The notes under the pieces were generated by a model, which searched no databases, was not told the DNA's origin, and was given only the letters and a program-made list of their open reading frames with translations. Position numbers and translations under genes: made by a program. 64,000 nucleotides of DNA. Source: an uncultured Lachnospiraceae bacterium. GTDB taxonomy: Bacteria; Bacillota; Clostridia; UBA1381. Location of the stretch: positions 4,576 through 68,575 of the forward strand of contig CAYUSE010000001.1 in NCBI GenBank assembly GCA_964447095.1, given 5' to 3'. This document shows, one piece after another, positions 41,480 through 63,098 of this stretch. How positions within the stretch are numbered: the stretch's first letter is position 1; each line of letters begins with the position of its first letter.

Positions 41480-41948
41480 GATATATCCTCCAATGTATTG
41501 TTTTATATAGAATATTGTATCATATAAAAATAACCATTGCAAGGCTGATATTTGTTAGAATAACGCCGCGTTTATTTATCAGCGCGAAGCATATTTGAAA
41601 CTGAGTTTTTTAGGTTTTTTTACTTAAATCATTGATTTTTTCACAAAAATGTGATAAAATATATTGGTAAATTTATGTAATAATTACAAAAAGTAAGTTA
41701 AGGTCATATAATTTCAGTCAAAATTCTTGTTTCTATTCGGGTAATATTTTAAAGTGCCGGTTGTTTTGTTTGCCGGAATATTTAAGAATATCCGGCGGTT
41801 ATAAACAAATAATTGTAAAAAAATATAAAGGGGGATTTCAATGCTATGGTTTAAAGATGGTTTGTAGATATTATTGTTTAGTTAGAAATGTAAGCATATT
41901 ATTTTTCGAAATGTAATTTATAAATTGGAAGGAGAAAACAAGAGACAA

Positions 41949-44294
41949 ATGAAAAGAAAATACAAAAAACTTATCAGTACGGCGCTGTCGTTATCAATAT
42001 TGACAACTATTGTTCAGCTGCCGGCAAAAGCGGAACCAACGGATGTACATATTCCTGAAATACAAATAGGAGAAGATATACTTTCAAATGATGTATTCTA
42101 TCTTGCATCGGCTAATGCACAACTCAATGAAGGCGAGAATGAACGGTATTTACTCCGTCTTGCAAGAGGCGGAGATTGCACTTCCAAATCGGGAGTAACA
42201 GTTAAAATTTCTGATTTAACTGCAAAATATGGCAAGGATTATACAATATCACTGTATGGGAGCGATGTGTCAGCCGATAATCCGAAAGACAATCAGTCGT
42301 TTTTAGAGCAAATAAATGGTCAGGAATATACTGAAACACCGGTGTATTCTGATGAAGAATATGCCGAAATGCTCAAAAATGATGAAGAATTGCAGGCAAA
42401 AACCACGGAAGCGTTACAGGATACAATAGATTATTGGGAGGAATCAAGCGGTCTGATGGAAACAGAAGCGGAGATTTCGGAAGAAGACGCCGGAAGCGTC
42501 AAAACCAACCCAATTCATGAAGCGCGCGAAAAATACACAGGAATACAGGGTGAAGAACAGAGAGTTACTTCGACTACAGATACTATGCAGGAAATACAGC
42601 AAATGGCTAATGTTCTGACTGATGCGGTTGTCGGCGCAAATATTACGGTTGATTTTGAAGAAGGCGAAAGTGAGAAGTATATTGTAATTGATGTAAATGA
42701 TAATCACCAGAGTGACGGAGACAGATATTTTTATCTTATGCTTGCCGCGCCTTACGGAACAACTACGAACAGCGCCGCGTCAAGCTGCGCTGTTACCATT
42801 GCTGACGATGAAGAAAAAGTTTTATCAGAAGTAGGCTTTGCGCAAACGGAATACAGAGCAGCAGGACATACATATTACTTGCAGTTCAGCGGATTTTTGA
42901 TGAAATATGCAATGGGAAGAATAAACGTAAGAAAAGGACAGACAATAGAATTTACGAAAAAGACCGATAGTAATTTTATATATGTAAACAATCCGGAATA
43001 CATATCCAATGAAGATATTGTTGATGATACTAATTCTCGGGGATATAAAATTTTTGAACAGAAAAATGTTAGGGGGAGTAGTACATATTATCAACCCAAT
43101 TTAGAATGGTACAATTCTGATGCGGATGAAAGATATTATCCAAAACAAAACAGTTTCTATATAGGGATAGATTTTTATAATCCAAATAGCTATGAGGTAA
43201 GTATCGAGGTAAATAATTTAGTTGCAACCGAGAATAAAACGTATTTACAGCATTACATAAATAAAACAGGTGAAAACGTAGGGGCTATAACCGTTGCTCC
43301 AAAACAGCATGCACAATTATTTGATTACACTGCTAATAAGATGATATGCCACAGAATAGGAGACCTCCCCAGTTCATATATATTGTTTGATTTTATCGTA
43401 AAAAAAGCAAACGGGGTATCTATACCATATAACGAAGGAATAACTATCAGTTCATTAGCTGCATATAATTACGAAAATATGCGGCTAAAATCAAATGAGA
43501 GCAATATCTTAGTATATCAAAATAAACCTTTAAATCATGGTGATATGTTATATGGGTCAGATACAAGACCAACAGAGCATGATTTAAGGATTAAGTATAA
43601 AGGCATTGCTGAAAACCAATCAAATCAGATAGATACAAATTTAGAATTTACGGTAGACAATGGTACTCATGATGGGATTGAATTTGAACTTAAAGATAAA
43701 AATGGTATAATTAACGGAACATACCCCGCAAAACAAACAGATTGGAATGTGCAAATAAACCCGATTAATGATGAGTATGAAGCATTATTGCATACTACAA
43801 CAAAAAATCTTCATAGTTTCACATACGATTTTAATGGGACAAAAAAATGGTATTTTGATTATAAACATAGAAATACCGATTATCTTACAACAAGTGATAA
43901 TTCAACAGAAATAAACCAAAGTGTACCAAATAGCATTATAGCAAAAGCTGCTGAAGAAATTATATCAGGACATAAATCTACAGTTGGTGCTATTGATGAA
44001 TCAGCAATAGAAATGGGTTCGTGGGGTGTAGTCTATCATTATGTTATAACAGTAAATAATGTAGGAACAATAACAAAAACAGTAAAATATAGGATTAAAA
44101 CCGATGCACACCTTACACTTATTGGGATGCGTGAAAACGAAAATGATAAATACACCTTTAAAGATAGCGGTATGGATACAGCGTATCAAATACCATTTAC
44201 TATAGAAATTCCTCCGGGTCAAAAAACATTTGAAATAGTTACAATGTCAGGAGCAGGCAATGGAGGATTAGAGAATACTTTAATAGTAGAATAG
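41949..44294 (+). CDS. Secreted chimeric protein: N-terminal Calx-beta-like domain with an acidic insertion, fused to an unassigned AT-rich-encoded C-terminal region
   Basis: Signal peptide MKRKYKKLISTALSLSILTTIVQLPAKA. The Calx-beta halves are GVTVKISDLTAKYGKDYTIS and ITVDFEEGESEKYIVIDVNDNHQSDGDRYFYLML...VTIADDEE. Nucleotide composition becomes visibly more AT-rich after ~42.87 kb. The alternative TTG start is at 41925. Confidence 0.65.
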   Translation: MKRKYKKLISTALSLSILTTIVQLPAKAEPTDVHIPEIQIGEDILSNDVFYLASANAQLNEGENERYLLRLARGGDCTSKSGVTVKISDLTAKYGKDYTISLYGSDVSADNPKDNQSFLEQINGQEYTETPVYSDEEYAEMLKNDEELQAKTTEALQDTIDYWEESSGLMETEAEISEEDAGSVKTNPIHEAREKYTGIQGEEQRVTSTTDTMQEIQQMANVLTDAVVGANITVDFEEGESEKYIVIDVNDNHQSDGDRYFYLMLAAPYGTTTNSAASSCAVTIADDEEKVLSEVGFAQTEYRAAGHTYYLQFSGFLMKYAMGRINVRKGQTIEFTKKTDSNFIYVNNPEYISNEDIVDDTNSRGYKIFEQKNVRGSSTYYQPNLEWYNSDADERYYPKQNSFYIGIDFYNPNSYEVSIEVNNLVATENKTYLQHYINKTGENVGAITVAPKQHAQLFDYTANKMICHRIGDLPSSYILFDFIVKKANGVSIPYNEGITISSLAAYNYENMRLKSNESNILVYQNKPLNHGDMLYGSDTRPTEHDLRIKYKGIAENQSNQIDTNLEFTVDNGTHDGIEFELKDKNGIINGTYPAKQTDWNVQINPINDEYEALLHTTTKNLHSFTYDFNGTKKWYFDYKHRNTDYLTTSDNSTEINQSVPNSIIAKAAEEIISGHKSTVGAIDESAIEMGSWGVVYHYVITVNNVGTITKTVKYRIKTDAHLTLIGMRENENDKYTFKDSGMDTAYQIPFTIEIPPGQKTFEIVTMSGAGNGGLENTLIVE

Positions 44295-44316
44295 TATAGA
44301 ATAGGAGATGACAGTA

Positions 44317-45600
44317 ATGAAAAAAATATTGTTTGCAAATATAATTTGTGCTACATTAATTATGCTTTGCGTAACAAATGTGAGTGCAGAAAAGGTTAAT
44401 AATTTGGCTGAGAAATTAGATGAACTGATAATGGAAAGACAGTTTACGACAGAACAATTTTCACAAATGGATAAAGAATATCTTAAAGATTTTGATAAAT
44501 GGTTTTGGAATGATTATCTGCCGCCTACTAAGCTTTTAGGTAAAATGAATACAGATAGCGATGAAGCTGAATATGAATATTGTTTAAGTATGAATCGACC
44601 TGATTACTCTTATGGCGTATTGATGACCTATCTTGACACAAATAAATATGCAAAACAATATGCAGAAAATGAAGTGTTCAACTATTTACTTGATGATACA
44701 AAACAATATTGGGCTGTTTTGCATAAAAGGGGAAGTGGTGTAGCCGCCGAATTTAGAAAAGATGGTAGTCGCATTTATGATATGAATTTAGAAATCGGGG
44801 ATACATATGAAACAATTACAATAACACAAGAATTGATAGATTTGCTAAAAGATTCAAATAAAATAGAAACCATGCTTTTAGATAAAGGTGAAATGACAGT
44901 AACGGATTTAAAGTTATTCAGTATGCAAAACGGAATTACATTTTTGTATATAAAATGTGATAAAAACGAATATTTGATAAAGTTGTATGGGTTTTCCGGA
45001 TATTGTGAGTATATTCCTGAAATTGCAGGAAAAAAGTTGTATACAGTAAGCGATGTTTTGAGGTCGTTGGCAGTTCAAGAAGGTAGAGATTTGCCGTCCA
45101 GATTTGACCTGTCTCAAAATATTTCTAAAACAAAACGAACTTTTGAATCTGAAGCCAAAATGTTGCAAGACGAGGGTTTACTTAAAGGAAATGAAAACGG
45201 ACTTGATTTGTTAAAGCCGCTGACACGCGCAGAAGCGGTAACGTTGTTAGTGCGTGCGCTTGGTTTGGAAAGTGAGGTTGGAAATTACACGGACAGTCAA
45301 TTTTCGGATATTTCGTCTGATAACTGGGCTTCTCCGTATGCTGCGCTCGCCAAATCCCGAGGCATTGTAAATGGTGTAAGTGAAACGGAATTTGCTCCCG
45401 ATGAACAAGTAACGGCAGACCAATTTGCAACCTTTACTTTGCGAGCAATGGGCGAAAGGGATTTTGATTACACAGAAGGAATCAAAATGCTTGTTGATAA
45501 AGGCATAATCACACAAGAGAATGCTGAAACAATGGATTTCTTCACTCGCGGCGATATGGCTAAGATAATATATGAAGCTCGTGAAAAAGGATTGCTTTAA
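44317..45600 (+). CDS. Secreted protein with C-terminal SLH-like repeats (paralog A)
   Basis: Signal peptide MKKILFANIICATLIMLCVTNVSA. The C-terminus carries LKPLTRAEAVTLLVRALG, FSDISSDNWASPYAALAKSRGIVNGVSETEFAPDEQVTADQFATFTLRAMG and FFTRGDMAKIIY. ATG 44317 is better spaced from the AGGAG than 44308. Confidence 0.7.
   Translation: MKKILFANIICATLIMLCVTNVSAEKVNNLAEKLDELIMERQFTTEQFSQMDKEYLKDFDKWFWNDYLPPTKLLGKMNTDSDEAEYEYCLSMNRPDYSYGVLMTYLDTNKYAKQYAENEVFNYLLDDTKQYWAVLHKRGSGVAAEFRKDGSRIYDMNLEIGDTYETITITQELIDLLKDSNKIETMLLDKGEMTVTDLKLFSMQNGITFLYIKCDKNEYLIKLYGFSGYCEYIPEIAGKKLYTVSDVLRSLAVQEGRDLPSRFDLSQNISKTKRTFESEAKMLQDEGLLKGNENGLDLLKPLTRAEAVTLLVRALGLESEVGNYTDSQFSDISSDNWASPYAALAKSRGIVNGVSETEFAPDEQVTADQFATFTLRAMGERDFDYTEGIKMLVDKGIITQENAETMDFFTRGDMAKIIYEAREKGLL
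45151..45590 (+). repeat. Direct repeat copy 1 (3' ends of the tandem SLH paralogs)
   Basis: This ~440-nt stretch aligns with 46445-46885 with only scattered substitutions by eye. The upstream gene parts are much more diverged. Confidence 0.7.
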
Positions 45601-45613
45601 GGGATATGCTATC

Positions 45614-46900
45614 ATGATGAAAAAAATAATTTCTTTAATTGTATGTTTACTATTAATGATTAATACAAGTATTTCGGTATTTGCTGAAAACAATGTAAAA
45701 ATACAAGGTTTGAGAGAGTGTATAGACGGAATACTTTGGAGAGGCAGTGAACATTTAGATGTAAAATCCAAAATAGAATCGGATTATTCAAAAAGTTTGG
45801 ATGATTTAGCAAAAATGGCTCAGTCATACCCAAACTATGTGTTAGAGAAAATGGGGTTGGATCCTAATAAAGATATGCCAATTGATCAACAAATAAAAGA
45901 AGAGTTTGCGCTTGATTATGAAAAAGGATTTGTGACAAGCGCGACAAATACGCATAAATATCTTGTTGATTATGCAAACGCAGGATGTTTTTCATATTTG
46001 TTAAACAACAACAAAATGCTTAGAATTCCGCATACCGTAAGACTTGGATACGAAGAGTATTTGCTCGACGGGAATAAGTTAGAAGATTATGAGGATAAAA
46101 AATATGGGCTTCGCTATATTATTATTGATAAAGAGGTATTTGACTATTTGGAGAATATCAACTCTATTGAAACAAGCCTGCTCGAAAGAGGAGAAACAGT
46201 TGTTAAAGACATTGAACTTTTTGGCTTAAGCGATTTGACACTGTTATACATTAAAGGTGAATATGATGAATATTTAGTAAAATTAAACGAATATGGTGAC
46301 AGAATTTTGACGGCTATAGAGCCATATGTTCTCTATAAGGCGAATGAGCTGATAAGCGCATTTGATGATTACTCAGTCAAAAACTCCCCTTATTCGCAGG
46401 TGTTATCAGAACTCGTGCTTGCTCCAAAGCCGACATTTTCATCAGAAGCGGAATCATTGCAATCGGAGGGGTTACTTAAAGGAAACGAGAAAGGCTTGGA
46501 TTTATTAAAACCGCTGACACGTGCAGAAGCTGTAACATTATTGGTGCGTGCGCTTGGTATGGAAAGCGAGACCGGGAATTACAAAACAAGCCAATTTTCA
46601 GATATTCAATCTGATAACTGGGCTTCTCCGTATGCTGCACTTGCCAAATCACGGGGTATTGTAAACGGTGTAAGCGAAACGGAATTTGCTCCCAATGAAC
46701 AAGTAACAGCAGACCAATTTGCAACATTTACATTGCGTGCAATGGGTGAAAGTAACTTTGATTATACAGAGGGTGTGAATATTCTTATCAATAAAGGCAT
46801 AATCACACAAGAGAATGCTGAAACAATGGATTTCTTTACTCGCGGCGATATGGCAAAAATAATATATGAATCCCGTGAAAAAGCTTGCTTTAAAAAATAA
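45614..46900 (+). CDS. Secreted protein with C-terminal SLH-like repeats (paralog B)
   Basis: Signal peptide MMKKIISLIVCLLLMINTSISVFA. The C-terminal ~145 aa are near-identical to paralog A, while the N-terminal parts are related but diverged. Confidence 0.7.
   Translation: MMKKIISLIVCLLLMINTSISVFAENNVKIQGLRECIDGILWRGSEHLDVKSKIESDYSKSLDDLAKMAQSYPNYVLEKMGLDPNKDMPIDQQIKEEFALDYEKGFVTSATNTHKYLVDYANAGCFSYLLNNNKMLRIPHTVRLGYEEYLLDGNKLEDYEDKKYGLRYIIIDKEVFDYLENINSIETSLLERGETVVKDIELFGLSDLTLLYIKGEYDEYLVKLNEYGDRILTAIEPYVLYKANELISAFDDYSVKNSPYSQVLSELVLAPKPTFSSEAESLQSEGLLKGNEKGLDLLKPLTRAEAVTLLVRALGMESETGNYKTSQFSDIQSDNWASPYAALAKSRGIVNGVSETEFAPNEQVTADQFATFTLRAMGESNFDYTEGVNILINKGIITQENAETMDFFTRGDMAKIIYESREKACFKK
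46445..46885 (+). repeat. Direct repeat copy 2 (3' ends of the tandem SLH paralogs)
   Basis: See 45151-45590. Confidence 0.7.
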
Positions 46901-46924
46901 GTTATTATTATATGACAAGTTAAC

Positions 46925-46969
46925 GGCATATTGCATGATTAATTTTAATGCAATATGCCAATTTTTTTT
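46925..46969 (+). terminator. Intrinsic terminator after SLH paralog B
   Basis: The stem GGCATATTGCAT / ATGCAATATGCC has an 11-nt loop and is followed by AATTTTTTTT. Confidence 0.75.
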
Positions 46970-46990
46970 AAATCTCCTCAACGCCCTTGA

Positions 46991-48181
46991 CAAAATGTTT
47001 ATGATAATACTCCAAATCCCGGAGATAAGGTAAATGTAAATATCAAGGTTAAGAATGCGGGACTTACATACGCAGACGGCTATACAATCAATATTTACGA
47101 GATGAAAAACGGCGTTAAGGGTAATCTTATAGAAAACATTGTTTTTGACGGAACGCTGCTGCCGGGAAATATAAATTCGCATAATTTTGAGTGGACGACT
47201 CCTGCTGACTTAGACGGAACAAGTCTTTATGCAGAAGCGCAGGAGGGCAGTATGACGAATTACTCTGAATTTGAGTCGGAAAAATTCAAATTAAAGCCTG
47301 ATTATGTTGTTGACGGAGCAAATATTTATCAGAACGGAAATGGTTATCATATAAAATGCAGCGTTACCAATACAGGCAATGCGCCATCATCGGCTGAAGA
47401 CTCCTTGGAAATATTGCTTGCAGGACCGTATGAAATATCATACAGCTATTCAAAAGAAGAGTGTGAATTGGCAAAGATACCCTTTGGTGAAATTGGAATA
47501 GGTGAGCAGATAATGATTGACAGTGATTTTAATATTGCTCCTGAATTGTTTGAACACTATGGATATATAGATTGTTTTGTAGCAGGAAAGGACAAAGACG
47601 GAAATAGAATTACGGAAGGTGAGAGAGTCCGCCTGATGGCTGCAAGCCCGCTCGAAGTTATGCTTAACGGCAAACAATTCCCTGAAAATATTGAAATGTC
47701 GGCGGGAGAGACAATGGAATTTGATATTTCATGTGTGCCAAACAGACTTAATGCAGATTTGAACGTATCATTAAGCTCTGACGATTCGGGAATTGTAGAA
47801 TTTGACGGAACAAAGCTTATAGCTGTTTCAGAAGGAACAACAACAGTACATGGTGTGCTTTGGCCTTATGGTACAACCACTGAGGATATAACGATAACAG
47901 TCAATAATTCAATACCTGTAGTTGTAAACACTCCCACCGTAACCGAAACGTCGTTTGATTATGACCTTGTTATAGGCGAAACAGCATCAGATTATGATTT
48001 GTATGTCGCATTATATGCAGCTGACCATACTCTGTTGGGAGTAAAGAAAAATAAATCGGCAGACAAATTTAATTTGCCGATTGAAACCGGCTGGGCATTA
48101 AAGATTATGATGTGGGATAAAAACACAATGAAACCAATAGGCTCGGCTATCACATACACAGCCGAGAATATGCATAATTGA
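46991..48181 (+). pseudogene. 5'-truncated remnant of a large surface-protein gene (CARDB-like x2, Big_2-like, recurrent C-terminal tail)
   Basis: The frame is open from 46991, after an in-frame TGA at 46988-46990, and already encodes the start of a CARDB-like domain (DNTPNPGDKVNVNIKVKNAG...). The first ATG (47102) falls inside that domain, and no signal peptide or SD is present. Domain order mirrors the C-terminal part of the 54936 protein. The 47102-48181 part could still be translated. Confidence 0.5.
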
Positions 48182-48229
48182 TGTTAGAGATTACTTAAAA
48201 TAATAAAATACAGAAAGGATAAAAAGGAT

Positions 48230-48382
48230 ATGTGCAAAAAAGAAAAAGAAATAGAAAATGAAAAAGCTCAGGAGATAAACCTTGAAGATTTAAGTCAAAT
48301 CACGGGTGGCGCCGGCAAAACAACGCGTCCGCCGACAGTTACTATACACAAATATACTGAAACCGTGAAAGAAAAAGCATAA
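48230..48382 (+). CDS. Double-glycine-leader peptide precursor 1 (50 aa)
   Basis: Not in the ORF track because it is under 60 aa. It encodes MCKKEKEIENEKAQEINLEDLSQITGG/AGKTTRPPTVTIHKYTETVKEKA. The leader matches the class II bacteriocin/pheromone GG-leader pattern: hydrophobic at -4, -7 and -12, acidic at -8 and -9, and GG at -2/-1. An AAAGGA...AAGGA purine-rich SD lies upstream. A homolog lies at 62824 and a C39-peptidase ABC exporter lies 2.3 kb downstream. Confidence 0.75.
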   Translation: MCKKEKEIENEKAQEINLEDLSQITGGAGKTTRPPTVTIHKYTETVKEKA

Positions 48383-48391
48383 ATGATTAAG

Positions 48392-48426
48392 AATCCTTTG
48401 CTGTGTATGCAGCAAAGGATTTCTTA
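48392..48426 (+). terminator. Candidate intrinsic terminator after peptide gene 1
   Basis: The stem AATCCTTTGCTG / CAGCAAAGGATT has a 6-nt loop and is followed by TCTT, a weak U-tract. Confidence 0.5.
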
Positions 48427-48494
48427 AAGAAGAATATAGAAGATTAAAAAGAAAATTTTGAATAAGAATATAAAGTTGTTATTGGTAAAATCTA

Positions 48495-48523
48495 TTGAAA
48501 ATTATTTTGATGTAATGTATAAT
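48495..48523 (+). promoter_or_regulatory. Near-consensus sigma-A promoter for the exporter/giant-protein operon
   Basis: TTGAAA (48495-48500), exactly 17 nt of spacer, then TATAAT (48518-48523), ~75 nt upstream of ATG 48598. Confidence 0.55.
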
Positions 48524-48597
48524 ATTTACATAGAAGGGATGCATAGAACTGACATCAGAAAACACTGATAATTTTTCTTGTCTTTTGGAGGAAGGTT

Positions 48598-49740
48598 ATG
48601 AAAAAAATATATATACTTTTAATTTCTGTCTTTATATTATACATACTGTGCGGCTGCGGAGGCAATCCGCTGACACAAACTGTAAAAATTGCCGTTATGG
48701 GAAATCAGGCTGATTTTTATCCCGGCTACAAAGAGGGTATTGAGAGAGCGGTAAATGATTTGAATAAGGAATATGCCGACAGCGGATGTACCGTAGAATA
48801 TGAATTTTACAATGATAACGGAAATTATGAGAAAGGCGCGGCTATTATTGATACACTCGCATCAGATAAAAGTATTACGGCTGTTATCGGAGCAGTGGAT
48901 ATGGATATAAACAAAACCGCCGCTCATGTTTTTAACGAAGCGGAGAAGCTTTTTGTTATTCCGTTTTTTCTCTACGATAGTGTGTATGAGGATAATTATT
49001 ATGATACAGTGTTTTCGTTGTGTAATTCGGCAAAAACGGTCGGAGATATACTGCGCGGCGCGGCGGCGGATACAAAAGCCAAACGTTGGGCGGTATGTGC
49101 GGCAGAAGGTGAGTTTGAACGCACGGAAATGAACGGATTTTTGCAAAACAGTGCGGCAGACGGTATTGCAGTTGTTGACTGTGCGAGTATGTCAATGCTT
49201 GTAAATCAATTTGATGAAGTCTATAAGTATTGGGATATTTTAGGCGTTGAGGGTGTCGTAATGTTTCCCTCAGGCAGTGAGGGCTTTGATATTTTAAAAA
49301 AAATAAAGAAAAAAAATCCCGATATTATTTGTGCGGGAGATACTGCTTTTGACAATAGTGTAGTTATGGATAATGATCCTGAGCTTCTGGCAGCAATGAA
49401 CGGATTTATAATGGCGGACGAATTCATGCTGCGTAATGAAGCTGATGGTGAGAACAGTTTAATTACAGATATGGAAGAAGAATACAAACAGAAAACAGGG
49501 AACGATTTTGACGTATGGTATATCCAGGCATATAATGCCGTGAGAATGATTGCTGATACAGCAATACAGAATCGGGTCTTTAATTCTGCGGATATAGCAA
49601 AGCTTCTGCACGAAAATGATTACAATGGCTTATATCAGCGTTTTAAGTGTGATGAAAAAGGATTGCAGGTCACGGACGTATTTAAATACAGCGTAATGGA
49701 TGAAAGGGGATACTTCGAGGAATATGAATTGAAGGATTAG
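48598..49740 (+). CDS. Orphan lipoprotein with a type-1 periplasmic-binding-protein fold (LivJ/Peripla_BP_6-like)
   Basis: Signal peptide plus lipobox (LYILCGC/GG). KIAVMGNQADFYPGYKEGIERAVNDLNKEY...ITAVIGAVDMDINKTAAHVFNEAEKLFVIP resembles branched-chain-amino-acid-type binding proteins. No cognate permease or ATPase of that type is nearby. Confidence 0.6.
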   Translation: MKKIYILLISVFILYILCGCGGNPLTQTVKIAVMGNQADFYPGYKEGIERAVNDLNKEYADSGCTVEYEFYNDNGNYEKGAAIIDTLASDKSITAVIGAVDMDINKTAAHVFNEAEKLFVIPFFLYDSVYEDNYYDTVFSLCNSAKTVGDILRGAAADTKAKRWAVCAAEGEFERTEMNGFLQNSAADGIAVVDCASMSMLVNQFDEVYKYWDILGVEGVVMFPSGSEGFDILKKIKKKNPDIICAGDTAFDNSVVMDNDPELLAAMNGFIMADEFMLRNEADGENSLITDMEEEYKQKTGNDFDVWYIQAYNAVRMIADTAIQNRVFNSADIAKLLHENDYNGLYQRFKCDEKGLQVTDVFKYSVMDERGYFEEYELKD

Positions 49741-49748
49741 GTGAAAAT

Positions 49749-50630
49749 ATGCAAAATTTATTCAGAAAAGAAGCGCTTGAAAGCTTTTCTTCAAACAACG
49801 GAATTACTAAGGGGATACGCGCGGTAAGCATTAAAGCAGTGATTTTTACGGTTTTGATTGCAGTATGCTCAGCAGCCTTTGCTGTGTGGCTTGTGTTCGG
49901 AACGGTTTATGAAACTGTATCCGTAAGCGGAGTAATATGGCCCGCGGAAAATAACGGCGGCGTGTATGCAAAATCCGGAGGAGTTATAACAAAGACGGTC
50001 GTTGCTTCGGGTGACATTGTGAAAACGGGAGATATTCTCGCCGTAATTCCGCAAGAAGATATTTTAACAAAAATAAAAAATAAAAAAGAGAGCGGCGCTG
50101 CGGACGAGGAGCTTAATACGCTGTATGACGCATACGACAGACTTTCCGTGGCACGCTCGAATATTGATGGAATTGTGACGAATATTGCCAATGAAAATAT
50201 TTGTATAAACAAAGGTGATAAAATAGCAGAGGTTGTGCCGTACAGTGAAGACGGCAATAATAAAATACTGACTGCGTTCATTCCTTCTGACAAAAGCGGT
50301 CTTGTAAAGCTTGGAATGGAAGCTCAGGTAATGCCTGATTTTGCTCCGCGCGAAAAATACGGATATATAAAAGCATATATTTCAGGAATTTCATCTTATT
50401 CTGTTACGGGGCAGAGCATAAAAGACTCAAACAGTGAACTGTTTTTATCAGAGTTTGACGAAAGAGAAAGCTATATACAGCTTGAAATAACACTTGTATC
50501 GGATGCAAATGCTCAGAGCCGGCTGAAATGGTCAAATCCTAACAGCGGAAGTACAGATGTTGCTATGGGAACGGTATGCGGAGCAGACATAGTAATTAAA
50601 AAATGCCGTCCGTATGAATGGTTGTTTTAG
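49749..50630 (+). CDS. HlyD-family membrane-fusion / bacteriocin secretion accessory protein
   Basis: N-terminal FRKEALESFSS followed by a single TM (AVIFTVLIAVCSAAFAVWLVF). Lipoyl-like hairpins are present (GGVITKTVVASGDIVKTGDILAVI and GIVTNIANENICINKGDKIAEVVP). It sits 9 nt upstream of the C39 ABC gene. Confidence 0.7.
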   Translation: MQNLFRKEALESFSSNNGITKGIRAVSIKAVIFTVLIAVCSAAFAVWLVFGTVYETVSVSGVIWPAENNGGVYAKSGGVITKTVVASGDIVKTGDILAVIPQEDILTKIKNKKESGAADEELNTLYDAYDRLSVARSNIDGIVTNIANENICINKGDKIAEVVPYSEDGNNKILTAFIPSDKSGLVKLGMEAQVMPDFAPREKYGYIKAYISGISSYSVTGQSIKDSNSELFLSEFDERESYIQLEITLVSDANAQSRLKWSNPNSGSTDVAMGTVCGADIVIKKCRPYEWLF

Positions 50631-50639
50631 GAGGGCATT

Positions 50640-52781
50640 ATGGAGAAGGTAAAAAAGGTACGTCCCATACTGCAAATGGAAGCGACTGAATGCGGCGCAG
50701 CATCGCTTGCCATGATTTTAGGCTATTACGGCAAGACTGTAACGCTTGAGGAGCTAAGGCGCGAGTGCGGAGTATCGCGAAACGGCGTAAACGCGAAAAG
50801 CATTGTAAACGCGGCGCAGTATCATGATTTAAACCCGAGAGCTTTGCGCGTGAATATTGAAGGTGCGGAAAGAGTAAAAACACCTGCGGTCATACATTGG
50901 AATATGGACCATTTTCTTGTGCTTTGCGGATTTAATAAACGCGGCGCAGTGCTTGCAGATCCGGCATACGGGATTAGGACCGTAAGCATGGAGGAATTTT
51001 CAAAATCTTTTACCGGCATTGTAATAGAGCTTACTCCTGCAGAGAATTTTAAAAAAGATAAGGGAGGAAAAAATGCAAATGATTACATAAGCTTCTGCGT
51101 AAAGAGTTTTTTGCCGAATATATTTTATTTTATACTGCTTGAATTATGCGCAATTATAGGAAGCGGCGCGGTATTGTTTTTAAATTCCGTGTTCATAGAT
51201 AAAATTCTTATCGGTGAGAACACGCAGAATTTAACGATTATACTTAAAACGCTTTTATGCGCAGGATTTATAACAGCGGCGGCAGCTATACTTAATACGA
51301 ATATTAGGCACAGGATAGGCAAACAGCTAAATATGAAGATAAATTCGGGATTTATTGAGCGTATGCTAAGGCTGCCGGTTGAATTTTTTGCGCAGCGAAG
51401 CGAGGGAGATTTGGCAAACTGTCAGAATGCGAATATGCAGATGGGCGCGAAGCTCAGCAGTATGATGTCGCCTGTACCCGGATATATAATGCAGATTATT
51501 ATATATTTTATATTGATTGCCGTATTGGACGCGCATATTGCTTTTATAGGAATATTATGCGCGTCGGCAAATATTTGTGCAATGATAATAAGTTCTCAAA
51601 AATATGAGGAAAAGATGCGTTCCTACAGCCGTGATATGGGCGCTTTGCAGAGCGATATTTCACAAACGATTGATATGATTGAAACAATAAAAGCCTGCGG
51701 CGCTGAAGACGCTGTATTTGCTCGGCTTATGGCGGCGGGTACGCAGACAGTTAACACAAAAACCCAGATTGACAAAACAGGAGTATATACAACCGGTTTG
51801 TTTTCCTTTTTAAATGCTCTCGGCGCAGGCGCTGTGTTAATTGCCGGTATATGGAAGATACTTGCCGGTTCTATGACTATGGGTATTCTGATAGCGGCGC
51901 AGGCTTTTGTCGCGGCAATGCTGGAACCCTTGGGAGATGCAGTAAATGCAGGAATAGAAATGCAGACCTTAAAGGGCGAAACAGCGCGTACAAATGATGT
52001 TATGCACTATAACGAGGATGATAAATTCCTTGATGACAGCATTGAACAGACAAAAGAAATTGACGGAGATATTGAACTGAAAAATATCAGCTTTGGCTAC
52101 AATCCGCTTGACGCACCGCTTATAGAAGGATTTAACCTTGTGATAAAAAAGGGCGGCAGTATTGCGATTACAGGAGCAAGCGGCAGCGGAAAATCCACAG
52201 TTGCAAAAATCATTGCGGGGCTTTACCGTGAGGATAGCGGATGTGTTACCTTTAACGGCACGTTAAGAAAGGAAATAAATCATTATTATTTTTATTCAAA
52301 AACAGCAGTGGTAAGTCAGAATATACGGCTGTTTGACGGTACGGTGCTTGACAATATAACAATGTGGGATGACAGTATTCCTTATGACGAAGTTGTTGCG
52401 GCGGCAAAGGCGGCGTGCATACATGACGATATAATAGGCAGAAGAAACGGCTACCGTGAAATTGTTACGGAAAACGGCAGAAACTTTTCAGGCGGTCAGC
52501 GGCAGCGTATTGAGATAGCGCGCGCTCTCGTAAAAAAACCGTCCGTAATTATAATGGATGAAGCAACAAGCGCGCTTGATGCAGATACTGAGGAAACCGT
52601 TATGAATAATATAAAAGCAATGGGAATTACTCGGATAGTTGTTGCTCACAGACTGTCAACAATTATGGACAGTGATGAAATCATAGTTATGGAAGACGGT
52701 AAAATCTCCGAGCGCGGAACACATGACGAGCTTATGATGAAAAACGGCGCATATTGTGCATTGGTAAGGAGTGTGGGATAG
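50640..52781 (+). CDS. Peptidase-C39-domain ABC exporter (bacteriocin/peptide-cleaving, ATP-binding and permease)
   Basis: The N-terminal C39 domain has the catalytic Cys in LQMEATECGAASLAMILGYYG and His in VIHWNMDHFLVL. A 6-TM domain follows, with Walker A GASGSGKST, signature FSGGQRQR and Walker B VIIMDEATSALD. Confidence 0.9.
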   Translation: MEKVKKVRPILQMEATECGAASLAMILGYYGKTVTLEELRRECGVSRNGVNAKSIVNAAQYHDLNPRALRVNIEGAERVKTPAVIHWNMDHFLVLCGFNKRGAVLADPAYGIRTVSMEEFSKSFTGIVIELTPAENFKKDKGGKNANDYISFCVKSFLPNIFYFILLELCAIIGSGAVLFLNSVFIDKILIGENTQNLTIILKTLLCAGFITAAAAILNTNIRHRIGKQLNMKINSGFIERMLRLPVEFFAQRSEGDLANCQNANMQMGAKLSSMMSPVPGYIMQIIIYFILIAVLDAHIAFIGILCASANICAMIISSQKYEEKMRSYSRDMGALQSDISQTIDMIETIKACGAEDAVFARLMAAGTQTVNTKTQIDKTGVYTTGLFSFLNALGAGAVLIAGIWKILAGSMTMGILIAAQAFVAAMLEPLGDAVNAGIEMQTLKGETARTNDVMHYNEDDKFLDDSIEQTKEIDGDIELKNISFGYNPLDAPLIEGFNLVIKKGGSIAITGASGSGKSTVAKIIAGLYREDSGCVTFNGTLRKEINHYYFYSKTAVVSQNIRLFDGTVLDNITMWDDSIPYDEVVAAAKAACIHDDIIGRRNGYREIVTENGRNFSGGQRQRIEIARALVKKPSVIIMDEATSALDADTEETVMNNIKAMGITRIVVAHRLSTIMDSDEIIVMEDGKISERGTHDELMMKNGAYCALVRSVG

Positions 52782-62823: not shown

Positions 62824-62979
62824 ATGTCAGACGAAAAAAAGACAACTGTGAAAAACGATGAAATCACTGAACAGGAAATTAGTCTTGACGAATTGGATAA
62901 TGTGACAGGCGGTTCGATTGGCAATGTAAAATATACAAAGACAGTCGATATCAGCGGTGATACCAAAAGAAAAGCATAA
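62824..62979 (+). CDS. Double-glycine-leader peptide precursor 2 (51 aa)
   Basis: Not in the ORF track. It encodes MSDEKKTTVKNDEITEQEISLDELDNVTGG/SIGNVKYTKTVDISGDTKRKA. A perfect SD AAGGAGG (62808-62814) lies inside the end of the giant gene, and the ATG sits 1 nt after its stop. The leader and the core motifs (KYT-x-TV, C-terminal K-x-KA) are homologous to the 48230 peptide. Confidence 0.75.
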   Translation: MSDEKKTTVKNDEITEQEISLDELDNVTGGSIGNVKYTKTVDISGDTKRKA

Positions 62980-63052: not shown

Positions 63053-63098
63053 AGGCTGTATCAATGATAAAAGCGTTGATACAGCCTAAATTTTTTTT
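63053..63098 (+). terminator. Intrinsic terminator closing the exporter/giant-protein/peptide operon
   Basis: The stem AGGCTGTATCAA / TTGATACAGCCT has an 11-nt loop and is followed by AAATTTTTTTT. Confidence 0.8.

What the first reader, a model, noticed from the sequence alone, without database searches (positions are those of the whole stretch)
48230..48382. Unannotated 50-aa GG-leader peptide gene directly behind a truncated surface-protein gene
The ORF lies 48 nt after the stop of the 46991-48181 remnant. A purine-rich SD precedes it and a hairpin (48392-48426) follows it. The leader has hydrophobic residues at -4 (I), -7 (L) and -12 (I), an acidic pair at -8/-9, and GG at -2/-1. The 23-aa core is basic, has no Cys, contains a PP pair, and has an alternating T/V/I/K pattern suggestive of beta-strand propensity rather than an amphipathic helix.
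Basis: seen in the sequence. Interest (0 to 1): 0.7.

Follow-up and report, generated by a model that had tools for sequence, protein, structure and literature searches.

The report
Secreted peptide paired with giant protein
This is a real 50-codon gene for a small peptide that is probably cut and pumped out of the cell by the transporter encoded next to it; it is a divergent member of a previously unnamed peptide family that, in many gut Clostridia, sits beside the gene for a giant cell-surface protein, and its function is still unknown.

Summary
The ORF at 48230-48382 exists exactly as described: a 50-aa product, a Shine-Dalgarno site, a strong downstream hairpin and a 27-aa double-glycine leader. 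It is a real gene. Five near-identical metagenome contigs keep the frame, with 4 synonymous changes against 1 conservative change. Its leader scores 37 bits against a leave-one-out profile of a family I found here. That family has 100+ sequence clusters of 46-60-aa peptides, all labelled 'hypothetical' and with no Pfam or NCBIfam model. A canonical paralogue lies in the same window at 62824-62979. In 10 of the 11 lineages with readable flanks, the peptide gene lies next to a 2,450-3,100-aa Calx-beta(/SLH) surface-protein gene. It is usually also next to a conserved lipoprotein-HlyD-ABC(C39)-ABC module related to the NHLP exporter trio. Here the upstream giant gene is broken; it is intact in relatives. 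Family cores are 21-22 aa, hydrophilic, essentially Cys-free and strongly constrained. The core of this copy has diverged and does not match the family core motif. The most likely mechanism is leader cleavage after Gly27 and export by the adjacent transporter, releasing a 23-aa basic peptide. That peptide would serve the giant surface protein as a ligand or signal, rather than acting as a bacteriocin. Export is well supported by inference. The extracellular role is unproven.

The parts
41949..42866 (+). 5' remnant of giant surface-protein gene A (signal peptide plus Calx-beta region). The ORF reads on to 44294 through unrelated sequence.
   Evidence: Window 41541-42866 is 99.5% identical to L001 1556-2881. 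Residues 9-341 of the 789-aa ORF are 93% identical to residues 1-335 of the intact 2,451-aa protein. Calx-beta hit.
42867..46993 (+). 4.1-kb segment that replaces 5.25 kb of giant gene A. It carries two paralogous SLH-domain genes (44308-45600 and 45572-46900).
   Evidence: No match to L001/L002 between the two homologous blocks. SLH hits. 300-nt direct repeat between the two paralogues.
46994..48181 (+). 3' remnant of giant gene A (last 359 codons are intact in frame).
   Evidence: 99% nucleotide identity to L001 8132-9319. 99.2% amino-acid identity to residues 2093-2451 of the intact protein.
48213..48219 (+). Shine-Dalgarno sequence GAAAGGA, 10 nt before the ATG.
   Evidence: Read in sequence. 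Comparable AAAGGAG/GGAGG sites precede almost all family members examined.
48230..48310 (+). Peptide 1 leader: 27 aa ending in Gly-Gly.
   Evidence: Leave-one-out leader profile scores 38 bits. It conforms to the family at -1, -2, -7, -8, -9, -10, -12 and -13, with I instead of the family's invariant V at -4.
48311..48382 (+). Peptide 1 core, AGKTTRPPTVTIHKYTETVKEKA (23 aa), plus stop codon.
   Evidence: GRAVY -1.0, net charge +3, no Cys. The core alone does not match the family core profile, scoring 0-2 bits. The only core-level relative is P0109.
48387..48427 (+). Strong stem-loop after the peptide gene. It is a weak-U-tract terminator, attenuator or 3' stabiliser.
   Evidence: -22.6 kcal/mol, z = -6.5. 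It is retained in relatives, with loop changes in L003/L004. Hairpins of -24 to -42 kcal/mol follow 12 of the 14 family genes examined. The terminator scan did not call it.
48495..48523 (+). Promoter-like site TTGAAA-17-TATAAT upstream of the lipoprotein gene. It lies inside a 117-bp segment (48437-48553) that is present only in this genome.
   Evidence: 11/12 consensus match. Relatives have 20 bp in place of this segment. This is a consensus match only.
48598..49740 (+). Lipoprotein with a type I periplasmic-binding-protein fold (LivJ-like).
   Evidence: PF13458, 69.8 bits. Lipobox LCGCGG visible in the translation. AF2 pLDDT 92.3. Nearest structures 4q6b/4mlc, TM 0.76-0.88. Collinear with the exporter genes in all 39 genome loci.
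49749..50630 (+). HlyD-like membrane adaptor.
   Evidence: The best family is TIGR03794 at 119.5 bits, below the cutoff of 156.2. PF13437 hit.
50640..52781 (+). ABC exporter subunit with an N-terminal C39 peptidase domain (ABC1).
   Evidence: TIGR03796 at 756.9 bits, cutoff 853.3. PF03412 at 119 bits over the full domain. Full-length match to PCAT1 (4ry2, E = 1e-90) and to ComA (8hf4). Q12, C18, H91 and D107 are present.
52771..54915 (+). Second ABC exporter subunit without a recognisable peptidase domain (ABC2). It overlaps ABC1 by 11 nt.
   Evidence: TIGR03797 at 582.1 bits, cutoff 709.4. No similarity between its N-terminus and the C39 domain of ABC1.
54936..62822 (+). Giant surface-protein gene B: 2,628 aa with a Sec signal, Calx-beta domains, an about 2,000-aa uncharacterised middle, and 3 SLH domains.
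   Evidence: 52-61% identical to the giants that precede family peptides in Butyricicoccus (L046) and in L055.
62824..62979 (+). Peptide 2, the canonical family member (51 aa): MSDEKKTTVKNDEITEQEISLDELDNVTGG|SIGNVKYTKTVDISGDTKRKA. AAGGAGG lies 8 nt upstream.
   Evidence: 80 bits against the family profile.
63054..63098 (+). Terminator-like hairpin (GGCTGTATCAA...TTGATACAGCC) followed by a T8 run, closing the module.
   Evidence: Read in sequence. Not tested further.

Best explanation
The ORF at 48230-48382 is a functional gene for a ribosomal precursor peptide.

Shown here:
- It is kept in frame under purifying selection.
- It carries a canonical double-glycine leader that is homologous to the leaders of a large family of 46-60-aa peptides with no Pfam or NCBIfam model.
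- In 10 of the 11 lineages with readable flanks, the family gene lies directly beside a giant Calx-beta(/SLH) surface-protein gene. It usually lies within, or next to, a conserved lipoprotein-HlyD-ABC(C39)-ABC module.

Inferred from the established behaviour of double-glycine peptides and C39 ABC exporters:
- The C39 domain of the 50640 protein binds the leader and cleaves after Gly27.
- The ABC1/ABC2 pair, with the HlyD-like adaptor, exports the 23-aa basic, hydrophilic, unmodified peptide AGKTTRPPTVTIHKYTETVKEKA.

Inferred from gene linkage only:
- Outside the cell, the peptide acts together with the giant wall-associated protein encoded immediately upstream, as its dedicated small ligand/partner or as a cue tied to its production.
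- It does not act as a membrane-active bacteriocin.

In this genome, the partner giant gene A is disrupted. Peptide 1 may therefore be an orphan that still uses the shared exporter. Giant B and peptide 2 (62824-62979) form the intact pair.
For: Real gene.
- Five contigs at about 99% identity keep the ORF. They differ at five sites: 4 synonymous and 1 conservative (T45S). dN is 0.008 against dS 0.145.
- The family shows dN/dS of 0.05-0.14 and an excess of third-position changes.
- Tandem Butyricicoccus copies differ at 11 of 21 core codons, and all 11 differences are synonymous.

Family.
- 35 representatives at E <= 1e-3 among 1.84e9 proteins.
- 103 clusters, with E down to 2e-18.
- A leave-one-out profile scores this ORF at 36.7 bits.
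- Across 105 leaders: GG 100%, V-4 100%, L-7 100%, D/E at -8/-9, L/I at -12 96%, E at -13 93%.

Exporter.
- The NHLP-type trio gives the best hits.
- The C39 domain is full-length, with Q12/C18/H91/D107.
- ABC1 matches PCAT1 and ComA over its whole length.
- The genes are tightly packed or overlapping.

Giant pairing.
- The peptide directly follows a 2,451-3,114-aa gene in L001/2, L012/33, L046-51, L048/49, L052, L053/54, L055/56 and L057, and precedes one in L058.
- Genes beyond the peptide differ between lineages.
- The pair persists without an adjacent exporter in L053.
- Peptide subtype tracks giant clade. A-type giants pair with 'MCKKE' leaders, including this ORF. B-type giants pair with SI.NV.YT.T.DIS.DTK.KI cores.
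- PBP-HlyD-ABC1-ABC2 is collinear in all 39 genome loci, and about 25 of them show a giant N-terminus next.

Not bacteriocin-like.
- Cores are 21-22 aa with median GRAVY -0.87. One of 105 contains Cys and none contains Trp. There is no hydrophobic stretch.
- There is no immunity-like membrane ORF nearby.
Against: - No expression, cleavage or export data exist.
- The core of this particular copy does not match the conserved family core (0-2 bits). Its only core-level relative, P0109, sits on a 678-bp contig with no giant ORF in the 390 nt upstream.
- The -4 residue is I, whereas all 105 relatives have V.
- The exporter proteins score below NCBIfam's curated cutoffs.
- Co-variation of peptide type with giant clade is also what simple co-inheritance of linked genes would give.
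- There is no sequence similarity between peptide cores and the giants.
- No structural evidence of binding exists, because the AF2 model of the precursor is low-confidence.
- The partner giant gene is broken in this genome, so this copy could be on its way to loss.
- The binding-protein lipoprotein looks like an amino-acid binder. That neither supports nor explains a peptide role.
Confidence: 0.62

Rival explanations
1. It is a peptide pheromone or quorum signal. The exported peptide would be sensed at the surface, for example by the co-encoded binding-protein lipoprotein or by an unlinked histidine kinase, and would regulate production of the giant surface protein or of community behaviour.
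For: - It is a small, unmodified, hydrophilic, basic-tailed double-glycine peptide exported by a ComA-like transporter.
- A solute-binding lipoprotein accompanies the exporter in all 39 loci. In L058 it is replaced by a different SBP family (PF04392), which suggests that the SBP function is needed.
- Seven of 29 family members give sub-threshold ComC hits, through the leader only.
Against: - No histidine kinase, response regulator or RRNPP regulator is conserved in the module.
- The tightest linkage is to the structural giant gene, not to any receptor.
- Cores are conserved across genera rather than diversified into pherotypes.
- The lipoprotein is closest to Leu/Ile/Val-type small-ligand binders.
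Confidence: 0.22
2. It is an unmodified class II bacteriocin (or one component of one) that is exported by its dedicated transporter. The adjacency to giant-protein genes would then be incidental.
For: - A double-glycine leader with a C39 ABC exporter and an HlyD-like accessory protein is the classic class II bacteriocin arrangement.
- There are weak leader-level hits to TIGR01847, the class IIb cerein family and PF10439.
- The core has net charge +3.
Against: - The core is strongly hydrophilic: GRAVY -1.0, and the best 9-residue window is -0.2.
- It has no amphipathic or hydrophobic segment, no GxxxG or YGNGV motif and no Cys.
- There is no small membrane immunity gene beside either peptide gene.
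- The mature sequence is conserved across genera and under strong purifying selection.
- The giant-gene adjacency recurs in 10 of the 11 lineages with readable flanks, even where no exporter is adjacent.
Confidence: 0.08
3. It is a RiPP precursor whose Thr/Ser/Lys/Glu-rich core is post-translationally modified by enzymes encoded elsewhere. Possible modifications include ester or amide cross-links, acylation or glycosylation.
For: - The core is rich in Thr, Lys and Glu.
- In two other lineages, the giant-peptide pair is accompanied by a single NRPS C-A-T module, an Lgt paralogue and an LPG_synthase_C protein (L052 and L057).
- The exporter is related to the NHLP/Nif11 RiPP exporter trio (PMC2887384).
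Against: - No modifying enzyme is encoded between 41.9 and 63.2 kb of the window, nor in the Butyricicoccus, Ornithomonoglobus or L055 modules.
- No RiPP precursor model matches above noise.
Confidence: 0.05
4. It is not a functional gene in this genome. It would be a leftover of the disrupted giant-A unit, or a chance ORF, that is no longer expressed.
For: - The upstream partner gene is broken by a 4.1-kb replacement.
- The core has drifted away from the family motif.
- No strong promoter is predicted directly upstream.
Against: - The same core, with one conservative change, is present in relatives where giant A is intact. The divergence therefore predates the disruption.
- The frame, SD and hairpin are intact.
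- Four of the five changes among relatives are synonymous. By my estimate from the site counts, P is about 0.007 under neutrality.
Confidence: 0.03

Closest known systems
Double-glycine leader peptides processed by peptidase-containing ABC transporters (ComC/ComAB, BlpC/BlpAB, class II bacteriocins, PCAT1-CtA)
   Same: - The leader is 27 aa with GG at -2/-1, hydrophobic residues at -4/-7/-10/-12 and acidic residues at -8/-9.
- The adjacent ABC protein has a complete C39 domain and matches PCAT1 and ComA over its full length.
- An HlyD-like accessory protein is present (general rules in PMC7595303).
   Different: - There is no cognate kinase/regulator and no immunity gene.
- The exporter is a two-ABC system (one subunit with and one without peptidase) plus a solute-binding lipoprotein.
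- The mature region is conserved across genera and is hydrophilic.
- The gene is coupled to a giant surface-protein gene.
NHLP/Nif11 precursor system with its three-gene exporter TIGR03794/TIGR03796/TIGR03797 (Haft et al. 2010, PMC2887384)
   Same: The same trio architecture (HlyD-like, ABC with peptidase, ABC without) is present. These three models are the best NCBIfam hits for the three window proteins.
   Different: - All three scores fall below the curated equivalog cutoffs.
- The substrate has a short classical leader, not a 70-80-aa nitrile-hydratase- or Nif11-like leader.
- No cyclodehydratase, LanM or other maturase is present.
- A binding-protein lipoprotein and a giant Calx-beta/SLH gene are added.
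Pneumococcal double-glycine signalling peptides without a linked receptor (VP1, BriC)
   Same: They are small secreted double-glycine peptides, widely conserved within the lineage, with no adjacent two-component system. They are linked to adherence and biofilm phenotypes rather than to killing (PMC7595303).
   Different: - There is no sequence relationship beyond the leader (one family member hits NF033772 at E = 0.16).
- VP1 and BriC are not paired with a giant structural gene or with a dedicated two-ABC exporter.
Type 1 secretion loci for giant repetitive adhesins (LapA/LapBCE-type, HlyB/HlyD-like; own knowledge and the review PMC8277102 listed)
   Same: A giant Calx-beta-containing surface protein is encoded beside HlyB-like ABC and HlyD-like genes. 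TIGR01846 is the second-best hit for ABC2.
   Different: - The giants here carry an N-terminal Sec-type signal peptide, and in most cases C-terminal SLH wall anchors.
- The organisms are Clostridia with no outer-membrane component in the module.
- The evident transporter substrate is the small double-glycine peptide.

Membership tests
Double-glycine leader peptide / PCAT substrate | Gly-Gly (or Gly-Ala/Gly-Ser) at -2/-1, ending a 15-30-aa N-terminal leader | tested here: met
   The leader is 27 aa and ends ...ITGG. GG is invariant in 105 relatives.
Double-glycine leader peptide / PCAT substrate | Hydrophobic residues at -4, -7 and -12 (and -10/-15), with acidic residues at -8/-9 | tested here: met
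   I-4, L-7, L-10, I-12, A-15, D-8 and E-9.
Double-glycine leader peptide / PCAT substrate | Match to a curated double-glycine leader model (TIGR01847 bacteriocin_sig) | tested here: inconclusive
   12.7 bits against a cutoff of 15.7, E = 0.17. Fourteen of 29 family members match at E >= 0.01.
Double-glycine leader peptide / PCAT substrate | A C39-peptidase ABC transporter with catalytic Cys/His(/Asp) and oxyanion Gln encoded nearby | tested here: met
   PF03412 at 119 bits over 3-132 of 133 positions. Q12, C18, H91 and D107 are present; the alignment is to ComA recalled from memory. Full-length match to PCAT1 and ComA structures.
Double-glycine leader peptide / PCAT substrate | Leader actually cleaved after GG and the core exported | not testable with these tools
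   Needs in vitro cleavage or peptidomics.
NHLP / Nif11 precursor system (TIGR03793/TIGR03798 with exporter TIGR03794/6/7) | Long nitrile-hydratase-like or Nif11-like leader domain | tested here: not met
   No NCBIfam hit to TIGR03793/03795/03798. The leader is only 27 aa.
NHLP / Nif11 precursor system (TIGR03793/TIGR03798 with exporter TIGR03794/6/7) | Exporter proteins reach the curated equivalog cutoffs | tested here: not met
   119.5 < 156.2, 756.9 < 853.3 and 582.1 < 709.4. These are nevertheless the best hits in each case.
NHLP / Nif11 precursor system (TIGR03793/TIGR03798 with exporter TIGR03794/6/7) | Three-gene architecture: HlyD-like + ABC with peptidase + ABC without peptidase | tested here: met
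   49749-50630, 50640-52781 and 52771-54915. Architecture as described in PMC2887384.
Unmodified class II bacteriocin | Amphiphilic or hydrophobic membrane-active core, or a subclass motif (YGNGV, GxxxG) | tested here: not met
   GRAVY -1.0, the best 9-residue window is -0.2, and no motif is present.
Unmodified class II bacteriocin | Adjacent immunity gene (small membrane protein) | tested here: not met
   Only a 36-aa non-hydrophobic ORF lies between the peptide gene and the lipoprotein gene. Nothing comparable follows peptide 2.
Unmodified class II bacteriocin | Antimicrobial activity | not testable with these tools
   Needs a bioassay.
ComC/BlpC-type peptide pheromone | Cognate histidine kinase and response regulator in the same locus | tested here: not met
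   None between 41.9 and 64 kb of the window, and none conserved in related modules.
ComC/BlpC-type peptide pheromone | Match to PF03047 (ComC) | tested here: not met
   No hit for this ORF. Seven of 29 relatives match sub-threshold, best E = 0.0038.
Giant-protein-associated double-glycine peptide family (defined here) | Leader consensus E(-13)-[LI](-12)-x-L(-10)-[DE][DE]-L(-7)-x-x-V(-4)-x-G-G | tested here: met
   36.7-38 bits against profiles built without this ORF. The only deviation is I for V at -4.
Giant-protein-associated double-glycine peptide family (defined here) | Conserved 21-22-aa hydrophilic core with T(-12)...I(-9)S(-8)x D(-6)T(-5)K(-4)x K(-2)I(-1) | tested here: not met
   The core is 23 aa and scores 0-2 bits. 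Only K-2 and K-4 are shared. The paralogue at 62824-62979 does meet this feature.
Giant-protein-associated double-glycine peptide family (defined here) | Gene directly adjacent, on the same strand, to a >2,400-aa Calx-beta surface-protein gene | tested here: met
   The gene lies 48 nt after the 3' remnant of giant A. That gene is intact (2,451-2,459 aa) in L001/L002.
Giant-protein-associated double-glycine peptide family (defined here) | Shine-Dalgarno site before, and strong stem-loop after, the peptide gene | tested here: met
RiPP precursor (post-translationally modified) | Modifying enzyme encoded in the cluster | tested here: not met
   No such gene in the window module. Candidate enzymes occur only in the distant variants L052 and L057.

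The most novel reading that the evidence does not exclude
The secreted 21-23-aa peptide and the giant wall-associated protein form an obligate two-gene unit. After leader cleavage and export by a dedicated SBP-HlyD-ABC(C39)-ABC machine, the peptide would bind its cognate giant protein outside the cell, as a specific ligand, cofactor or assembly/activation factor. Paralogous giant/peptide pairs (A and B in this species) would keep separate specificities. This would be a new functional class of double-glycine peptide: neither bacteriocin nor classical pheromone.
Probability: 0.3. Interest if true: 0.8.

Novelty: new variant of a known kind. Interest (0 to 1): 0.6.

Why it matters
Double-glycine peptides are normally filed as bacteriocins or competence-type pheromones. 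Here a family of more than 100 sequence clusters behaves differently.
- It occurs in gut and rumen Clostridia, including Butyricicoccus, Oscillibacter, Ornithomonoglobus and Hominilimicola relatives.
- It has a conserved, hydrophilic mature sequence.
- It is genetically tied to 2,450-3,100-aa Calx-beta/SLH surface proteins of unknown function and to its own exporter module.

Three things follow.
- It gives an entry point to the function of these giant surface proteins in abundant, hard-to-study commensals.
- It adds a candidate third role for double-glycine peptides.
- It flags a small-gene family that curated model libraries do not cover.

The question is directly testable in cultivable Butyricicoccus with a synthetic 21-mer.

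Tried and rejected
- Orthologous small ORFs directly upstream of the lipoprotein gene. I looked in 39 related genome loci and found none. The peptide follows the giant gene, not the lipoprotein gene.
- Metagenome scan with the alignment of this ORF and P0109. The automatic patterns fell on the low-complexity leader, and 600 candidates gave no confirmed relative.
- Hand-made pattern for TGGxGKxTxPPxVxIH. It gave 0 matches, so no further relatives of this copy's core were obtained.
- Context of P0109. The contig is only 678 bp and has no giant ORF upstream.
- Pfam, NCBIfam and Rfam. There is no family for the peptide and no RNA family anywhere in the window.
- Literature searches for a description of the peptide/giant module found none. 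No supplementary tables were held for the gut class II bacteriocin survey.
- AF2 of the precursor with a 94-sequence alignment. The model is low-confidence (pLDDT 63.5) and does not decide between strand and helix.
- Peptide core as a mimic of a segment of the giant protein. No match better than E = 0.5.
- Enzymatic or peptide-binding domains in the giants. I found only Calx-beta, SLH, Flg_new and weak CARDB/PA14 hits.
- N-terminus of ABC2 as a degenerate C39 domain. BLAST detects no similarity.
- Insertion-sequence-like repeats at the borders of the segment that disrupts giant gene A. None were found.
Full report
OBSERVATION

The ORF is there as described. ATG 48230 to TAA 48382 encodes MCKKEKEIENEKAQEINLEDLSQITGG|AGKTTRPPTVTIHKYTETVKEKA. 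It starts 48 nt after the stop of the upstream ORF. GAAAGGA lies 10 nt before the ATG. A stem-loop at 48387-48427 folds at -22.6 kcal/mol (z = -6.5; none of 200 shuffles folds as well).

The leader has I-4, L-7, L-10, I-12, D-8/E-9 and GG. The 23-aa core has no Cys, contains a PP pair, and has net charge +3 and GRAVY -1.0. No Rfam family matches anywhere in the window.

NEIGHBOURHOOD

Downstream, tightly packed on the same strand, lie five genes:
- A lipoprotein with a type I binding-protein fold (48598-49740; PF13458).
- An HlyD-like adaptor (49749-50630).
- An ABC exporter with a complete C39 peptidase domain (50640-52781).
- A second ABC exporter without a peptidase domain (52771-54915, overlapping the first by 11 nt).
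- A 2,628-aa protein with a Sec signal, Calx-beta domains and three SLH domains (54936-62822).

The best NCBIfam models for the adaptor and the two ABC proteins are TIGR03794, TIGR03796 and TIGR03797. This is the three-gene exporter that Haft et al. linked to NHLP/Nif11 precursors (PMC2887384). All three scores are below the curated cutoffs. ABC1 aligns over its full length with PCAT1 (4ry2, E = 1e-90) and ComA. It carries Q12, C18, H91 and D107 in the expected motifs (the ComA reference sequence is from my memory).

CLOSE RELATIVES AND THE 'TRUNCATED' GENE

A 98%-identical peptide (T45S) is encoded on five metagenome contigs that are about 99% identical to the window. In L001 and L002, the gene in front of it is an intact 2,451-2,459-aa Calx-beta protein. 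In the window, only its first about 0.9 kb (to 42866) and its last 1.19 kb (from 46994) remain. The 5.25 kb in between is replaced by 4.1 kb that carries two SLH-domain paralogues.

Across the five contigs, the small ORF shows five changes. Four are synonymous third-position changes and one is conservative. dN is 0.008 against dS 0.145. With roughly 120 non-synonymous and 30 synonymous sites, one or fewer non-synonymous changes out of five has a probability of about 0.007 under neutrality (my arithmetic).

A FAMILY

Two things first showed that this ORF is not alone. A motif scan of the window and fetched loci turned up a second double-glycine peptide gene right after the 2,628-aa gene (62824-62979). 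It has AAGGAGG 8 nt upstream and encodes MSDEKKTTVKNDEITEQEISLDELDNVTGG|SIGNVKYTKTVDISGDTKRKA. The same scan found homologues in two Clostridia MAGs.

Wider searches then defined the family.
- A profile of the two window peptides, searched against 1.84 billion representative proteins, gave 35 hits at E <= 1e-3. Almost all were 46-63 aa long.
- A profile of 29 members, searched against the 5.8-billion-protein collection, gave 103 clusters with E down to 2e-18.
- All of these are unnamed or 'hypothetical protein'. The named sources are Butyricicoccus, Oscillibacter, Ornithomonoglobus and Oscillospiraceae MAGs.
- Neither Pfam nor NCBIfam has a model for them. Only sub-threshold hits to generic double-glycine leader families appear.

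Across 105 members, the features are:
- Leader: GG 100%, V-4 100%, L-7 100%, D/E at -8/-9, L-10 80%, L/I-12 96%, E-13 93%.
- Core length: 21-22 aa in 101 of 105.
- Core composition: hydrophilic (median GRAVY -0.87). One of 105 contains Cys and none contains Trp.
- Core motif, counted from the C-terminus: T-12, I-9, S-8, D-6, T-5, K/R-4, K/R-2, I-1.

The core subtypes include SI.NV.YT.T.DIS.DTK.KI, SGLR.VKKE.T.DIS.D.K..I and AF.NVPRVP...ID.SLR.KI.

WHERE THIS COPY STANDS IN THE FAMILY

A profile built without this ORF scores it at 36.7 bits (E = 3e-10 for the window's 1,721 segments). The signal is entirely in the leader. The core alone scores 0-2 bits.

Its leader, MCKKE...QEI.L.DL..ITGG, is closest to the 'MCKKED...' leaders of the AF.NVPRVP subtype. 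Its core shares only the K-x-K tail and an RPP.V/VPRVP echo with that subtype.

One other protein, P0109, has a similar core start (GKATTPPPVHIH against GKTTRPPTVTIH). It sits on a 678-bp contig with no giant ORF upstream. This copy is therefore a bona fide family member by leader, position and gene signals, but with a divergent mature peptide.

SELECTION

Family genes show the signature of coding constraint.
- L012 against L033: dN/dS = 0.032/0.236.
- The tandem Butyricicoccus copies: dN/dS = 0.072/1.52.
- Third-position changes dominate in all comparisons.

In the Butyricicoccus tandem pair, 11 of 21 core codons differ and all 11 differences are synonymous. The leader has 7 synonymous and 8 non-synonymous differences. 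The mature peptide, not just the leader, is the constrained part.

Of the 14 family genes examined, nearly all have an AAAGGAG/GGAGG site before the start codon, and 12 are followed by a strong hairpin of -24 to -42 kcal/mol, often with a T-run.

SYNTENY

In all 39 genome loci recovered with the lipoprotein, the order lipoprotein-HlyD-ABC1-ABC2 is collinear. In about 25 loci with enough sequence, the next gene is a homologue of a giant-protein N-terminus.

Starting from the peptides instead, these contexts were found:
- Butyricicoccus: ABC2, giant (2,690 aa), peptide, peptide.
- Ornithomonoglobus: ABC2, giant (2,754-2,758 aa), peptide.
- L055/L056: ABC2, giant (2,655 aa), peptide. L056 is the same contig as lipoprotein locus L013, so the whole module is confirmed on one contig.
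- L052: Lgt, giant (2,632 aa), peptide, 31-aa ORF, NRPS C-A-T, 162-aa ORF, ABC1, ABC2.
- L057: NRPS, Lgt, giant (2,697 aa), peptide, S8 peptidase.
- L053/L054: ECF sigma factor, 58-aa ORF, giant (3,114 aa), peptide, with no exporter adjacent.
- L058: ABC, ABC, MFS, a different SBP family, peptide, giant (3,016 aa).
- L012/L033: the giant and peptide lie on the opposite strand, convergent with ABC2.
- L044: the one exception among the long contigs. The peptide follows ABC2 directly, with no recognisable giant gene next to it.

Genes beyond the peptide differ in every lineage. The constant feature is therefore giant gene plus peptide gene, usually with the exporter module.

The giants share a central region with no Pfam, NCBIfam or PDB match and fall into clades. 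A-type giants are L001A, L048 and L012/33, at 47-54% identity; they go with MCKKE-type peptides, including this ORF. B-type giants are window giant B, L046 and L055, at 52-61% identity; they go with the SI.NV.YT type. This species has both pairs, flanking one exporter.

MECHANISM

Steps shown by the data:
- The gene is real and constrained.
- It has a family-typical double-glycine leader.
- A catalytically complete C39 ABC protein, a second ABC protein and an HlyD-like protein are encoded 2 kb downstream in a conserved module.

Steps inferred from the established behaviour of double-glycine peptides and C39 exporters (PMC7595303; PCAT1 and ComA structures):
- The leader docks on the C39 domain.
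- Cleavage occurs after Gly27.
- The 23-aa core is exported.

A step inferred from linkage only: the peptide's extracellular role is tied to the giant surface protein. I favour a ligand/partner role over a classical signal for two reasons. The linkage is to the structural gene rather than to any receptor or regulator. It also survives loss of the adjacent exporter and changes in gene order. This inference is weak, because co-inheritance alone would give the same co-variation.

The lipoprotein models confidently (pLDDT 92.3) as a LivJ-like binder. Its closest structure is a Leu-binding protein from Desulfitobacterium hafniense. Its role is unexplained.

The hairpin after the gene probably ends or attenuates the giant-A/peptide transcript. 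In this genome only, a promoter-like TTGAAA-17-TATAAT lies in a 117-bp insertion ahead of the lipoprotein gene.

RIVALS

- Pheromone. Plausible at 0.22, but there is no kinase or regulator, and cores are conserved across genera rather than split into pherotypes.
- Class II bacteriocin. Unlikely at 0.08: the core is hydrophilic, there is no immunity gene, and the core is conserved.
- RiPP modified by unlinked enzymes. Rated 0.05. Candidate enzymes appear only in the L052 and L057 variants.
- Decaying orphan. Rated 0.03. The divergent core is the same in relatives with an intact giant A.

COMPARISON AND NOVELTY

It works like a double-glycine/PCAT substrate and passes every testable membership feature of that broad class. 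It is not an NHLP/Nif11 precursor. It does not meet the defining features of class II bacteriocins or of ComC-type pheromones.

I found no description in Pfam, NCBIfam or the searchable literature of the family, of its conserved hydrophilic core, or of its coupling to giant Calx-beta/SLH proteins and an SBP-containing two-ABC exporter. I therefore rate it a new variant of a known kind.

The specific ORF in the finding is the less typical copy of the two in the window. It is possibly orphaned, which tempers the score for the finding itself. The family-level observation is the interesting part.

Noticed in passing
window 62824-62979 (+): A second, canonical double-glycine peptide gene lies 1 nt after the stop of the 2,628-aa surface-protein gene. 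AAGGAGG lies 8 nt upstream, and a hairpin plus T8 terminator follows at 63054-63098. The longer ORF call from 62803 overlaps the giant gene and is probably not the true start.
   Followed up: yes
window 41949-48181: Giant surface-protein gene A is disrupted. 4.1 kb (42867-46993), carrying two paralogous SLH-domain genes (44308-45600 and 45572-46900), replaces 5.25 kb of the gene as seen in near-identical metagenome contigs. The 5' part reads on in frame for about 450 further codons of unrelated sequence, giving a chimeric 789-aa ORF that ends at 44294. There are no IS-like repeats at the borders.
   Followed up: partly
window 48437-48553: A 117-bp segment between the peptide hairpin and the lipoprotein gene is present only in this genome; relatives have 20 bp there. 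It contains the best sigma-70-like match of the region (TTGAAA-17-TATAAT, 48495-48523) and a 36-aa TTG ORF (48458-48568).
   Followed up: partly
L046 10001-10159 and 10314-10472 (Butyricicoccus); also L047, L050, L051: These are tandem duplicate peptide genes. Their 21-aa cores are identical even though 11 core codons differ synonymously, while the leaders differ at 8 residues. Gene callers extend the second copy to 78 aa from an upstream ATG that is probably not used.
   Followed up: yes
L052 1344-19689; L057 1-11639: In two other lineages, the giant-peptide pair is accompanied by an Lgt paralogue and a single NRPS C-A-T module. L052 additionally has a 31-aa ORF, a 162-aa protein and an LPG_synthase_C protein, and L057 has an S8 peptidase. 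This hints that some subfamilies are modified or lipid-linked.
   Followed up: no
L058 153-17140: This is a variant module. Two ABC genes, a 790-aa MFS protein and a solute-binding protein of a different family (PF04392) precede the peptide gene, which here lies upstream of the 3,016-aa giant gene. An SBP is retained by non-orthologous replacement, and no HlyD was called.
   Followed up: no
L053 1-10159; L054: In this Oscillibacter-type locus, an ECF sigma factor and a 58-aa ORF precede a 3,114-aa giant and the peptide (leader ending VQGG). No exporter is adjacent, so the exporter may be encoded elsewhere or shared.
   Followed up: no
window 48598-49740; PDB 4mlc/4q6b: The exporter-associated lipoprotein family matches one solved structure far better than any other: a Leu-binding protein of Desulfitobacterium hafniense, E = 1e-25 against 1e-7 for the next. 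Haft et al. listed D. hafniense among species with Nif11-type peptides next to this exporter trio. I could not check whether that protein is itself exporter-linked.
   Followed up: no
P0094, P0086, P0190/P0195 (family hits): Some database entries of the family look like artefacts or decayed copies. One has a frameshift-like hydrophobic C-terminal extension (P0094). One is a fusion call with a NusA-like N-terminus (P0086). Two have altered tails (P0190 and P0195).
   Followed up: no
window 2762-41542: The rest of the window encodes a sugar ABC importer (SBP_bac_1 plus two permeases) and a run of large carbohydrate-related or surface proteins: CBM9, Big_5, DUF4886, a 1,421-aa SLH protein, a Flg_new-repeat protein, GH1, and a GH43/CBM4_9 protein on the minus strand. 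No further family peptides were detected there.
   Followed up: partly
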